DNA from: a virus
Strand: one strand, 5' to 3'
Length of the DNA: 64,000 bases
Virus record (IMG/VR): IMGVR_UViG_3300027971_000039
Span: 1-64,000 of that record
Part shown: in pieces, positions 13,241-14,218 of the stretch
How positions within the stretch are numbered: position 1 is the first letter of the stretch
Layout: the number at the start of each line of letters is the position of its first letter
Program-made: the position numbers and the translations under genes
Notes under the pieces: model-generated
The model's database searches: none
What the model saw: the letters and a program-made list of their open reading frames with translations, nothing else
Told to the model about the DNA's origin: nothing

Positions 13241-14218
13241 ATGAAAAGAAAACTTAAACCAATAAAACAAATCGACATGGCCTGGGGTAGCCCAGCTTTT
13301 CTTTCGCCATATTGGGAAATCAATAAGATCAATGTCGATCACGTAAAAAAGAAAAAAAGCTATTCAATCGGCTCCCGTGCAAAACTTCGGAATAGAATAA
13401 AAGGGTTACATAAAAAAATAGGAAACGCTGAAACAAAAAATAAACATATTGTTGTTGCAGCTGGTGCAACGCAAATTGTATTAGGATTGATGCACGTACT
13501 TCGAGAACAAAATCCGAAAATCAAATCAGCTTGGGCTAAACCACCACACTTCTCCAGATTTCCCAAACTAGCGGACTTTGCAAAGCTAGATTGGTTTAAT
13601 ACAGAAGTAGCTATTACAATCACCAGTAACCCAAACAATCCAGATAATAGTATCTCAGATGAAACAGGATCAACCATTCTGGATCTATGTTATAATTGGC
13701 CACAATATACAGATCAAGTTAAAAAGTATGATCACCCAGTAATGGTATTTTCTTTAAGTAAAGCAACTGGTCACGCAAGCACACGCATAGGCTGGGCTAT
13801 CCTAAAAGATAAAGAATTAGCAAAAGCACTGGAAACTTATATCGAAATAAGTACGGGTGGATTATCAATCGACGCGCAAATCCGTGCTGAAAAAGTAATT
13901 GAACACCAGTTATCCACAGATTATACAGTATTTGATTATGGAAAACATGTTTTAAATGAACGTTGGAAAATCATAAATAAATTAGTAGAAGAAAATAAAC
14001 TTTATTTTACAGTCATGAATTCATCTGGAATGTTTCTTTGGGCCAACGGACTGTGCCCGCCCCACATATCCAAGATAAAAGGATCGGATTTAAAAGCAAC
14101 TGATGAATTCTTTAGATTAAATGTTGGATGTGGGCAAGGTGATTTTGATAACTTCTTACAAACAATATGCAAAGGAATTGACACAAGCCACCTGTATAAG
14201 ATAAAAGTATATTACTAG
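13241..14218 (+). CDS. PLP-dependent enzyme of the alliinase/TAA1 (Alliinase_C) family
   Basis: [49 protein letters not shown] (PLP Lys) and RLN match TAA1/alliinase motifs as recalled. Confidence 0.8.
   Translation: [325 protein letters not shown]

What the first reader, a model, noticed from the sequence alone, without database searches (positions are those of the whole stretch)
13241..14218. Phage-encoded enzyme of the plant TAA1/alliinase family
Seen: [10 protein letters not shown] and [26 protein letters not shown]..., [14 protein letters not shown] and G.S.DAQIRA. Established (recalled): Arabidopsis TAA1 has D.[46 protein letters not shown] and GVSKESQ.R. The family covers tryptophan aminotransferases for auxin synthesis and C-S lyases, and is mainly eukaryotic with a debated origin. 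Inference: an unusual auxiliary metabolic gene that could act on Trp or S-substituted cysteines, and may bear on the origin of TAA1.
Basis: partly seen in the sequence, partly recalled or inferred. Interest (0 to 1): 0.8.

Follow-up and report, generated by a model that had tools for sequence, protein, structure and literature searches.

The report
Compact phage TAA1/alliinase-family PLP enzyme
An uncultured freshwater phage carries an intact, optional gene for a small vitamin-B6 enzyme from the family that starts auxin synthesis in plants and makes garlic's allicin; it belongs to a large branch found almost only on phage DNA, and its substrate is unknown.

Summary
ORF 13241-14218 (+), 325 aa, contains every quoted motif. 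It scores 163 bits on Pfam Alliinase_C against 31 bits on Aminotran_1_2. TAA1 and garlic alliinase are its best solved relatives by sequence and by fold. All PLP, catalytic and carboxylate-binding residues are present, and the gene is under purifying selection.

The window is part of a complete 85.8-kb tailed-phage genome. The enzyme belongs to a large, compact (about 300 aa) branch of the family. It occurs on IMG/VR phage contigs and phage-like metagenome contigs. It is essentially missing from 185,579 prokaryote species genomes, where the single hit is itself phage DNA. It is absent from 50,697 deposited phage records.

In this lineage the gene is optional: 4 of 12 relatives lack it at the same site. 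Trees place it outside the eukaryote clade. A sister relationship fits at least as well as eukaryotes nested among phages, so the origin of TAA1 stays unresolved. Substrate and reaction type are unknown.

This scan has already reported the same family on other phage genomes.

The parts
13241..14218 (+). Coding sequence of the 325-aa Alliinase_C-family PLP enzyme (stop included)
   Evidence: ORF list. Pfam PF04864 at 163.2 bits, residues 11-257. AF2 model with pLDDT 92.3. dN/dS 0.03-0.10 in close pairs of relatives.
13283..13315 (+). N-terminal family motif [11 protein letters not shown] (residues 15-25), including G16
   Evidence: G16 is invariant in the phage alignment A1 and aligns with alliinase Gly64. 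The role of that Gly in substrate binding is recalled, not tested here.
13361..13363 (+). Y41, a tyrosine that probably reaches into the partner subunit's active site
   Evidence: Conserved in at least 90% of A1. Aligns with alliinase Tyr92. Residues 37-42 lie in the predicted dimer interface.
13631..13645 (+). PNNPD motif (residues 131-135) with N133, the Asn that binds PLP O3'
   Evidence: P131, N132, N133 and P134 are invariant in A1. N133 and P134 are invariant across phage and eukaryote forms in A2.
13682..13711 (+). [10 protein letters not shown] (residues 148-157): D148 (partner of the pyridine N), Y151, W153, Y156
   Evidence: D148, Y151 and W153 are invariant in A1 and A2. They align with TAA1 D191/Y194/W196 and alliinase D225/Y228.
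13760..13762 (+). K174, the Schiff-base lysine for PLP
   Evidence: Invariant in A1 and A2. Aligns with TAA1 K217 and alliinase K251 by counting in the alignments. Codon checked.
13784..13786 (+). R182, phosphate-binding arginine in the motif [10 protein letters not shown]
   Evidence: Invariant in A1 and A2. Aligns with alliinase R259. Lies in the predicted dimer interface, residues 177-183.
14114..14116 (+). R292, C-terminal arginine expected to bind the substrate alpha-carboxylate
   Evidence: Invariant in A1 and conserved in at least 90% of A2. Aligns with alliinase R401 in the second stretch.
12940..13149 (+). Upstream flank: conserved 69-aa ORF that marks one side of the variable site
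   Evidence: Found at 57-90% identity in 7 of the 14 exonuclease-anchored loci. In L126, L127 and L129 it is followed directly by the M78-like gene, with no enzyme gene between them.
14359..14796 (+). Downstream flank: M78/IrrE-like metallopeptidase gene, the other side of the variable site
   Evidence: Pfam Peptidase_M78, E 4.1e-05. Only 40-51% identical in relatives whose exonuclease is 83-99% identical.
14793..15884 (+). PD-(D/E)XK exonuclease gene, used as the lineage anchor
   Evidence: Pfam PDDEXK_1, E 2.2e-13. PHROG exonuclease families. 14 IMG/VR loci found with it as query.

Best explanation
The gene encodes an intact, working, homodimeric fold-type I pyridoxal-phosphate enzyme of the Alliinase_C (TAA1/alliinase) family, in a stripped-down form of about 300 aa. 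It lacks the EGF-like N-terminal module and the loop insertions of the eukaryotic forms.

Proposed mechanism: PLP sits as an internal aldimine on K174. It is held by D148 (ring nitrogen), by N133 and Y151 (O3'), and by R182 (phosphate). An L-alpha-amino acid binds with its carboxylate on R292 and its backbone near G16, and Y41 of the other subunit closes the site. My committed reading is that the enzyme then transaminates that amino acid to a 2-oxo acid, acting as an amino acid:2-oxo-acid aminotransferase like TAA1. The preferred substrate is unknown.

It is an accessory (auxiliary metabolic) gene of an uncultured freshwater tailed phage. It sits at a mosaic, recombining site in the replication module, and it belongs to a large branch of the family carried almost only by phages.

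Shown here: family membership, the fold, an intact catalytic set, purifying selection, the phage context, accessory status, and near-absence from cellular prokaryote genomes. Inferred: the homodimer, the roles of individual residues, and above all the reaction type and substrate.
For: Family and fold:
- PF04864 scores 163 bits against 31 bits for PF00155.
- In the PDB, TAA1 scores 8e-33 and alliinase 1.5e-23, while the next hit (HisC) scores only 0.17.
- The AF2 model has pLDDT 92.3. Foldseek gives TAA1 E 1.1e-26 (TM 0.85) and alliinase 1.7e-25; the best other aminotransferase gives 4.1e-16 (TM 0.72).

Catalytic set: N133, D148, Y151, K174 and R182 are invariant in both A1 and A2. G16 and R292 are invariant in A1 and conserved in at least 90% of A2. 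They align with the PLP-site residues of TAA1 and alliinase.

Selection: dN/dS is 0.105 (L002/L003, dS 0.17) and 0.032 (L017/L018, dS 0.13).

Dimer: ipSAE 0.81 against a best control of 0.00 (3 controls). The runs agree in at least 96% of contacts and the partner pLDDT is at least 88. In the tool's calibration the mark was reached by 20 of 30 proteins solved as pairs and by 1 of 23 solved as single chains. TAA1 and alliinase are themselves solved as dimers, so this pass may only reflect likeness to them.

Phage context:
- G000 is an 85,827-bp virus record that CheckV rates 100% complete. It has TerL, portal, tail-fibre and major-head genes and a replication module around the gene.
- 33 family-bearing IMG/VR loci were found.
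- 11 of 15 new unfiltered metagenome contigs share phage genes with those loci.

Absence from cells:
- A scan of 185,579 species genomes gave one full-length hit, and it lies beside an endolysin, TerL and a portal.
- An HMM scan of 401 Bacteroidota genomes gave 351 bits for that same contig and at most 67 bits for everything else.

Accessory status: 4 of 12 same-lineage loci lack the gene between the same flanking genes.

Leaning towards transamination:
- The sequence is closer to TAA1 (117 bits) than to alliinase (87 bits).
- Transamination is the default chemistry of this fold class (general knowledge).
Against: - Nothing in the sequence separates a transaminase from a beta-lyase. TAA1 and alliinase share all the residues listed, and the phage branch lies outside both, so its greater closeness to TAA1 may only reflect branch lengths.
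- No partner enzyme for an auxin-type pathway was found among the ORFs scanned: no flavin monooxygenase and no decarboxylase. Many small ORFs have no family hit.
- The window protein has His103-Phe104 where most of the phage family has Tyr-Phe, at the position that aligns near the ring-stacking Tyr165 of alliinase.
- One metagenome contig (L091) places a family member beside a chemotaxis-receptor gene, a possible bacterial context. Three NCBI MAG proteins carry bacterial labels on short contigs. 'Phage only' is therefore too strong.
- The genome-wide absence rests on motif-pattern scans plus a profile scan of a single phylum.
Confidence: 0.5

Rival explanations
1. Same enzyme and same architecture, but the reaction is a beta-elimination. 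In this reading it is a C-S lyase, like alliinase, that splits cysteine, cystathionine or an S-substituted cysteine or sulfoxide into pyruvate, ammonia and a thiol or sulfenic acid. That would reshape sulfur or methionine/SAM metabolism in the infected cell.
For: - Alliinase is the other characterised activity of the family. It matches by sequence (1.5e-23) and by fold (1.7e-25, TM 0.84) almost as well as TAA1.
- Koper et al. write that land-plant Trp aminotransferases 'likely functionalized from alliinases' (passages read). The older function of the family may therefore not be transamination.
- All alliinase active-site positions that I could map are conserved: G16, Y41, N133, D148, Y151, K174, R182, R292.
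- The phage also carries a SAM lyase at 1071-1457, so interference with sulfur-amino-acid metabolism is within its repertoire.
Against: - The EGF-like module typical of the alliinase subclade is absent.
- The SAM lyase lies 12 kb away and was not seen to travel with the enzyme in the loci examined.
- No residue specific to lyase chemistry is known to me, so the sequence does not favour this reading either.
Confidence: 0.22
2. The enzyme acts not on a free amino acid but on an amino acid tethered to a nucleic acid or nucleotide. That could be a step in phage DNA hypermodification, or chemistry on an amino acid carried by the tRNA-like RNA that ends 7 nt upstream of the gene.
For: - The gene lies inside replication or nucleotide-metabolism modules in several unrelated phage groups.
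- PLP enzymes do work on DNA-bound amino acids in phages M6 and ViI (PMC8989533, passages read).
Against: - The hypermodification decarboxylases are modelled on tryptophan synthase beta, a different PLP fold, and travel with a 5-hmdU kinase and an amino-acid:DNA transferase.
- The complete phage genome has no ThyA-type or ThyX-type hydroxymethylase candidate, and none of the scanned ORFs is such a kinase or transferase.
- R292 and G16, which bind a free alpha-carboxylate, are conserved.
- tRNA genes are not recurrent neighbours. Only 4 of 36 loci have any tRNA and only one has a tRNA near the gene. Relatives keep the enzyme without the RNA cassette beside it.
Confidence: 0.06
3. The gene is not truly a phage gene. 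It would be a recently captured host gene, an assembly chimera, or a decaying passenger with no function.
For: - It is optional in the lineage.
- PHROGs has no family for it.
Against: - No cellular donor was found in 185,579 species genomes.
- The same family sits in 33 IMG/VR loci of different phage groups.
- Purifying selection is strong and the catalytic set is intact.
- Near-identical DNA (0.61-0.69 of sampled words) stands in 4 further runs from 2 studies beyond the 2 possible source samples.
Confidence: 0.03

Closest known systems
Arabidopsis TAA1 / TAR1 / TAR2 L-tryptophan:pyruvate aminotransferases (PDB 3bwn, 3bwo; Pfam PF04864)
   Same: - Best solved relative by sequence (8e-33) and by fold (E 1.1e-26, TM 0.85).
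- Same single-domain layout without an EGF module.
- Same PLP lysine (K174 = K217), Asp, Asn, Tyr and Arg residues, and the same family motifs PNNPD, YxWPxYT and SKxTGHxxxRxGW.
- About 30% identity to a plant TAA over 335 columns.
   Different: - 325 aa against about 390-450 aa. The N-terminal extension and a C-terminal-domain insertion of roughly 15 residues seen in land plants are missing.
- It lies outside the eukaryote clade in all three trees.
- It is carried by a phage.
- The substrate is unknown, and no YUCCA-type partner was found among the ORFs scanned.
Garlic/onion alliinase (cysteine sulfoxide C-S lyase; PDB 1lk9, 2hor, 2hox)
   Same: - Same Pfam family and fold (1.5e-23; E 1.7e-25, TM 0.84).
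- The active-site positions align: G64, Y92, N207 (by motif), D225, Y228, K251, R259 and R401 correspond to G16, Y41, N133, D148, Y151, K174, R182 and R292 (the roles of these residues are recalled).
   Different: - No EGF-like N-terminal domain.
- About 100 residues shorter.
- No evidence for sulfoxide substrates.
- The weaker match of the two characterised relatives.
Ordinary class I/II aminotransferases (Pfam PF00155: HisC, AspC and kin)
   Same: Same PLP fold type I and the same general catalytic residues. There is a weak local match of 30.8 bits over residues 157-269.
   Different: - They score far lower than Alliinase_C.
- All NCBIfam models are far below their cut-offs, the best being 30.9 bits against 276.55.
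- Bacteroidota aminotransferases reach at most 67 bits on the family profile, and only over part of it.
- They form a 100%-supported outgroup in the trees.
Phage PLP-dependent decarboxylases of thymidine hypermodification (M6 gp52, ViI gp226)
   Same: PLP enzymes encoded by phages near replication genes.
   Different: - They are modelled on tryptophan synthase beta, which is another fold.
- They act on DNA-bound amino acids.
- They travel with a 5-hmdU kinase and an amino-acid:DNA transferase (PMC8989533, passages read). No such genes, and no hydroxymethylase, were found here.

Membership tests
Pfam Alliinase_C (PF04864), the TAA1/alliinase family | Family HMM above the gathering score and clearly above the general aminotransferase model | tested here: met
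   163.2 bits (cut-off 22) against 30.8 bits for PF00155. Note that PF04864 alone also rings on ordinary aminotransferases in 5 of 14 control genomes, so it is the margin that counts.
Pfam Alliinase_C (PF04864), the TAA1/alliinase family | Fold closest to solved TAA1/alliinase structures | tested here: met
   Foldseek on a pLDDT 92.3 model gives TAA1 1.1e-26 and alliinase 1.7e-25. The next best, other aminotransferases, give 4.1e-16.
Pfam Alliinase_C (PF04864), the TAA1/alliinase family | PLP-binding Lys, ring-nitrogen Asp, O3' Asn/Tyr, phosphate Arg, carboxylate Arg | tested here: met
   K174, D148, N133, Y151, R182 and R292 are conserved and align with TAA1 and alliinase.
Pfam Alliinase_C (PF04864), the TAA1/alliinase family | Family signature motifs (PNNPD; D-x-x-Y-x-W-P-x-Y; S-K-x-T-G-H-x-x-x-R-x-G-W) | tested here: met
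   Present at residues 131-135, 148-156 and 173-185 and shared with plant, algal and protist members.
Land-plant TAA1/TAR clade (auxin-biosynthetic Trp aminotransferases) | Placement inside the plant/eukaryote clade in a phylogeny | tested here: not met
   All named eukaryotes form a clade with 98-99% SH-aLRT that excludes the window protein.
Land-plant TAA1/TAR clade (auxin-biosynthetic Trp aminotransferases) | L-Trp:pyruvate aminotransferase activity yielding indole-3-pyruvate | not testable with these tools
   This needs an enzyme assay. No specificity-determining residues were available to me, because the paper on TAA1 substrate-binding residues (PMC3246337) is not held.
Alliinase subclade (alliinases and TAR3/TAR4-type proteins) | N-terminal EGF-like Cys-rich domain (Alliinase_EGF) | tested here: not met
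   The Pfam scan lists no EGF-type family, and the Alliinase_C match starts at residue 11. The Cys-rich block seen in Monosiga, Ancoracysta, Pellita and Myrmecia is absent from all phage forms aligned.
Alliinase subclade (alliinases and TAR3/TAR4-type proteins) | C-S lyase activity on cysteine sulfoxides | not testable with these tools
   Needs an assay.
Ordinary class I/II aminotransferases (HisC/AspC) | Reaches the curated cut-off of a named NCBIfam/TIGRFAM equivalog | tested here: not met
   The best is hisC TIGR01141 at 30.9 bits against a cut-off of 276.55. None of the 16 listed families comes near its cut-off.
Phage auxiliary metabolic (accessory) gene | Encoded on a bona fide phage genome, and present or absent among close relatives | tested here: met
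   TerL, portal, head and tail-fibre genes are in G000. 4 of 12 same-lineage loci lack the gene at the same site.

The most novel reading that the evidence does not exclude
The phage-borne branch is the missing non-eukaryotic counterpart of the TAA1/alliinase family. In this reading an ancient exchange between phages (or their bacterial hosts) and early eukaryotes seeded the enzyme that later became the first step of plant auxin synthesis. Today's phage enzymes would still convert tryptophan to indole-3-pyruvate in infected aquatic bacteria, so that phage infection alters auxin-type signalling between bacteria and algae.
Probability: 0.1. Interest if true: 0.85.

Novelty: new variant of a known kind. 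Interest (0 to 1): 0.6.

Why it matters
The literature I could read treats the family as essentially eukaryotic. [quoted passage not shown] The debate on the origin of TAA cites bacterial 'homologs' at only 25% identity and e = 2e-8 (PMC4754409, read in full).

A large phage-borne branch at about 30% identity and E around 1e-40 to plant enzymes gives that debate a real close outgroup or sister group for rooting the TAA/alliinase split.

For phage biology it is a widespread accessory enzyme of unknown purpose, with no cultured carrier and no PHROG family. At about 300 aa it is also a minimal version of the fold, which could be convenient for structural and engineering work.

Tried and rejected
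1. Eukaryotes nested within phage diversity. The FastTree and quick IQ-TREE trees drew it that way, with weak backbones (80-93). The constrained tree with all 41 phage/metagenome rows as one clade had a log-likelihood 19.2 higher than the free quick tree, p-AU 0.766. I therefore do not claim nesting. The group was defined after seeing the tree. The same test on 120 rows did not finish in 864 s and was dropped.

2. Conserved neighbour or pathway. Clustering the ORFs of 37 loci gave no neighbour shared beyond 12 of 35 enzyme-bearing loci. The recurrent neighbours are an M15 endolysin, DUF3310, Cpn60, an SbcC-like ATPase and unknowns. No functional link emerged.

3. DNA hypermodification. Rejected as the leading idea.

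4. tRNA adjacency. Not recurrent. ARAGORN would miss non-canonical tRNA-like RNAs.

5. Hallmark checks on five large virus records. PF03237, PF04451 and phrog_2 each gave 0 of 5, and the PF04451 control rang nowhere, so these were uninformative. PHROG scans of flanking ORFs then gave phage helicase, polymerase and DNA-transfer families for L031, L036 and L040 and a DNA methyltransferase for L030. The three ORFs tested from L039 gave nothing.

6. Host. The nearest deposited phage by TerL is 31% identical (a Silvanigrella phage). The host is left unknown.

7. Cultured carriers. Four queries from four clades against 50,697 phage records found none.

8. Expression. No RNA holder is listed among the 19 runs. 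This says nothing either way.

9. Promoter/terminator scan. It found nothing above the shuffled expectation around the gene.

10. Literature. Searches (too loose) found no paper on a phage or viral member of this family. The one paper holding both 'tryptophan aminotransferase' and 'auxiliary metabolic' concerns a fungal gene. Supplements were closed, so supplementary AMG tables may list PF04864 without my seeing it.

PMC3246337 is not held, so TAA1 pocket residues could not be compared.

Rows dropped from the trees:
- proteins under 270 aa and P0237, P0270, P0271 and P0272 were left out (298 candidate rows), then near-duplicates at 62% identity or more were removed (298 to 200 rows).
- duplicates at 44% identity or more (to 119 rows), and P0214, P0236 and P0239 for long or ambiguous branches. 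Outgroups L010-L013 and L043 were replaced by L049, L050, L052 and L053.
- 36 metagenome rows were hand-picked and P0281 was dropped as a near-copy.
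Full report
WHAT IS THERE

A single open frame, 13241-14218 on the + strand, encodes 325 aa.

Pfam gives Alliinase_C (PF04864) at E 1.1e-47 and 163.2 bits over residues 11-257, matching profile positions 1-282 of 363. The general aminotransferase model PF00155 reaches only 30.8 bits over residues 157-269. No NCBIfam model comes near its cut-off; the best is hisC at 30.9 bits against 276.55. PHROGs has no family for the protein.

Against all PDB sequences the best matches are Arabidopsis TAA1 (3bwn, 8e-33) and garlic alliinase (2hor and 1lk9, about 1.5e-23). 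The next hit is a HisC at E 0.17.

STRUCTURE AND CATALYTIC SET

An AlphaFold2 model built on a 32-sequence alignment has mean pLDDT 92.3 and pTM 0.90. Foldseek against the PDB ranks TAA1 chains first (E 1.1e-26, TM 0.85), then alliinase (1.7e-25, TM 0.84). The best other aminotransferase follows at 4.1e-16 with TM 0.72.

In the phage-family alignment A1 the invariant columns include G16, N133, D148, Y151, W153, Y156, K174, R182 and R292. In an alignment of phage forms with plant, chlorophyte and protist members (A2), N133, D148, Y151, W153, K174 and R182 remain invariant, and G16, Y156 and R292 stay at 90% or more.

Counting along the alignments gives these correspondences:
- K174 matches TAA1 K217 and alliinase K251.
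- D148 matches D191 and D225.
- Y151 matches Y194 and Y228.
- R182 matches R225 and R259.
- R292 matches alliinase R401.
- G16 matches Gly64, and Y41 matches Tyr92.

The roles of these residues in alliinase are recalled from the structural literature and were not tested here.

One local oddity: the window protein has His103-Phe104 where most phage relatives have Tyr-Phe.

A two-copy prediction scored ipSAE 0.81 against a best control of 0.00 (3 controls). The runs agreed in at least 96% of contacts and the partner pLDDT was at least 88. In the tool's calibration the mark was reached by 20 of 30 proteins solved as pairs and by 1 of 23 solved as single chains. The interface runs through residues 37-42, 74-81, 173-183 and 203-215, that is, around the active-site segments. 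TAA1 and alliinase are solved dimers, so this pass may only show likeness to them.

THE GENE IS SELECTED

Close pairs of relatives give dN/dS 0.105 (L002/L003, dS 0.17) and 0.032 (L017/L018, dS 0.13). The window against L001 gives 0.05, but there dS is saturated.

THE GENOME IS A PHAGE

The window is bases 1-64000 of an 85,827-bp IMG/VR virus record that CheckV rates 100% complete. That record encodes:
- a large terminase and portal (L048), a tail-fibre protein (L047) and a major head protein at 60177-61148;
- a replication and nucleotide module around the gene: class II RNR, DUF3310, an M78-like peptidase, a PD-(D/E)XK exonuclease, AAA ATPases, primase-helicase and DNA polymerase;
- dCMP deaminase and dUTPase;
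- an early region with DUF932, a SAM lyase and an SLT transglycosylase.

The nearest deposited phage by terminase is only 31% identical, so the host is unknown. Near-identical DNA (0.61-0.69 of sampled words) stands in four further runs from two studies, beyond the two runs that may be the source sample. One of those two studies is labelled freshwater.

THE FAMILY AROUND IT

The word-indexed search found 218 relatives among 1,759 candidates. All 120 listed carry PF04864, and most are 296-325 aa. The exhaustive search of 1.84 billion representatives found 774 clusters at E 1e-3 or better, 445 at 1e-10 and 124 at 1e-30.

Named members among these are plant TAR2/TAA proteins (Lupinus, Senna, Parasponia/Trema), Diphasiastrum, Colocasia, the chlorophyte Myrmecia, and the protists Monosiga, Ancoracysta and Pellita. 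Three are MAG-labelled proteins on short contigs.

IMG/VR holds 35 loci that match the profile. Of these, 33 are true family members, on contigs of 4.9-157.6 kb. The other two are 22%-identical ordinary aminotransferases on very large contigs. Flanking ORFs of the large-genome loci hit phage helicase, DNA polymerase and DNA-transfer PHROGs.

NEAR-ABSENCE FROM CELLULAR PROKARYOTES

A motif-pattern scan of one genome for each of 185,579 species matched 159 stretches, of which only 5 encode any relative. Only one of those, L009, is full length, at 40% identity on a 15.7-kb contig of a Flavobacteriaceae MAG. That contig carries an endolysin, a large terminase and a portal right next to the gene.

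As a check that does not depend on the motif patterns, the family profile was run over 401 Bacteroidota genomes. It scored 351 bits on that same contig. Everywhere else it scored at most 67.4 bits, as partial matches inside ORFs of roughly 400 aa or more that look like ordinary aminotransferases.

None of 50,697 deposited phage records has a member, using four queries from four clades.

AN UNBIASED LOOK AT CONTEXT

IMG/VR is pre-filtered for viruses, so I also scanned unfiltered metagenome contigs. This gave 72 loci. Of 15 new contigs examined:
- 11 share phage genes with the IMG/VR loci. L065, L066 and L069 have terminase and portal within a few kb.
- L096 encodes a 486-aa form with a 177-residue N-terminal extension and a stronger Alliinase_C score (238 bits). 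L112 has an ankyrin-repeat neighbour and L113 an exostosin GT47 neighbour. These three look eukaryotic or giant-virus-like.
- L091 lies beside a methyl-accepting chemotaxis protein, a possible bacterial context.

The accurate wording is therefore 'almost only phage', not 'only phage'.

ACCESSORY STATUS IN THIS LINEAGE

I used the neighbouring exonuclease as an anchor and found 14 IMG/VR loci. Twelve of them share the DUF3310, M78-like or exonuclease neighbourhood. Four of those twelve (L126, L127, L129, L130) have no enzyme gene between the same flanks. L126 is among them, although its exonuclease is 99% identical to the window's.

Where the enzyme is present it is only 50-62% identical, while the exonuclease is 83-92% identical. 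The M78-like gene is only 40-51% identical.

The gene is therefore optional and sits at a mosaic, recombining site. Across the whole family no neighbour is conserved.

PHYLOGENY

Three trees (FastTree on 205 rows; IQ-TREE LG+C20 PMSF on 120 and on 61 rows) all separate the family from Bacteroidota aminotransferases at 100% support. All three place every named eukaryote, together with seven unnamed metagenome proteins, in one clade. That clade has 98-99% SH-aLRT in the two IQ-TREE trees and 84% local support in the FastTree tree, and it excludes the window protein.

The free trees drew this clade inside the phage/metagenome diversity, but the backbone support was weak. When the 41 phage/metagenome rows were constrained to one clade, the tree found had a log-likelihood 19.2 higher than the free quick tree, with p-AU 0.766.

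A plain sister relationship therefore fits at least as well, and the direction of any transfer is open.

FUNCTION

The chemistry available is that of a fold-type I PLP enzyme acting at the alpha-carbon of an L-amino acid with a free carboxylate. The family has two characterised activities, Trp:pyruvate transamination (TAA1) and C-S beta-elimination (alliinase), and they share every residue I could map.

I commit to transamination as the most likely reaction, at about one in two. The protein is somewhat closer to TAA1, and transamination is the default chemistry of the fold. A C-S lyase is the main rival.

A role in DNA hypermodification is unlikely. The known phage PLP decarboxylases have another fold and travel with kinase and transferase genes (PMC8989533, passages). 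This complete genome has no ThyA- or ThyX-type enzyme. The tRNA-like element just upstream is not a recurrent neighbour.

COMPARISON WITH WHAT IS KNOWN

[quoted passage not shown] A review places TAA/alliinase homologues in green algae and land plants (PMC10015382, passages). The origin debate cites prokaryotic hits at 25% identity and e = 2e-8 to 9e-7 (PMC4754409, read in full).

My searches found no paper on a phage member. Supplementary tables could not be opened.

Within this scan the same family has been reported before: 28 findings in at least 21 genomes, with follow-ups reaching the same core conclusion. My tests were run independently and agree. What this report adds:
- presence/absence at a fixed site in this lineage;
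- the unbiased metagenome context count, including one possible bacterial context;
- the AU result, which argues against over-reading the nested topology.

VERDICT

I class it as a new variant of a known enzyme family, with interest 0.6.

Noticed in passing
window 142-882 and 1071-1457 (+): The genome's left end carries a DUF932 protein (E 5.8e-25) and an S-adenosylmethionine lyase family protein (E 1.1e-14).
   Followed up: partly
window 58648-60075 (-): A 475-aa ORF inside the structural arm matches homing/HNH endonuclease PHROGs (phrog_3339 at 3e-93, phrog_559 at 5.9e-62). It is a large mobile-endonuclease-like gene next to the major head gene.
   Followed up: no
L126-L135 (IMG/VR relatives), compared with window 11911-12177: The Sm-like ORF of the neighbouring cassette changes place. 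It lies upstream of the enzyme site in the window and in L126, but downstream of the exonuclease in L132-L135, and L132 holds two copies. This fits the earlier description of a movable cassette (e1-6117033).
   Followed up: partly
window 14359-14796 (+) and relatives: The M78/IrrE-like gene is only 40-51% identical in relatives whose adjacent exonuclease is 83-99% identical. A sharp recombination boundary therefore lies between the two genes.
   Followed up: no
window 14325-14354 (+): A near-consensus sigma-70-type promoter (TTGACA, 18-nt spacer, TATAGT; 11 of 12 positions) sits between the enzyme gene and the M78-like gene. The 20 nt before the enzyme's ATG show no Shine-Dalgarno-like purine run.
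   Followed up: no
L091:75-1187 and L091:3804-5297: A 370-aa family member lies on a 5.3-kb metagenome contig that also encodes a methyl-accepting chemotaxis protein (MCPsignal, 5.4e-32). This may be a bacterial chromosomal copy or a prophage edge.
   Followed up: partly
L096:4786-6246; L112:237-2186; L113:9535-11016: There are longer forms, or forms in different contexts. L096 encodes a 486-aa protein with a 177-residue N-terminal extension and 238 bits on Alliinase_C. L112 has an ankyrin-repeat neighbour and L113 an exostosin GT47 neighbour, which suggests eukaryotic or giant-virus contigs.
   Followed up: partly
L033:7675-9465, L036:7956-9737, L071:3432-5216: Large phages (116-158 kb records) that carry the enzyme also carry a Cpn60/GroEL-type chaperonin two genes upstream and an SbcC-like ATPase immediately downstream.
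   Followed up: no
L043, L044 (IMG/VR contigs of 582 and 391 kb): Two very large viral contigs encode a 423-aa ordinary aminotransferase only 22% identical to the window enzyme. It is not a family member and served once as an outgroup.
   Followed up: no
L019:4948-5145; L025:4621-4777: Relatives carry a tRNA-Asn(GTT), like the window's at 28020-28095, followed closely by a tRNA-Ile(TAT) or by an odd tRNA with a two-base anticodon call.
   Followed up: no
L009:5412-5804: In the phage-like contig of the Flavobacteriaceae MAG, the gene just upstream of the enzyme weakly matches a phosphoheptose isomerase PHROG (1.1e-06). Related ORFs recur in L065 and L069.
   Followed up: no
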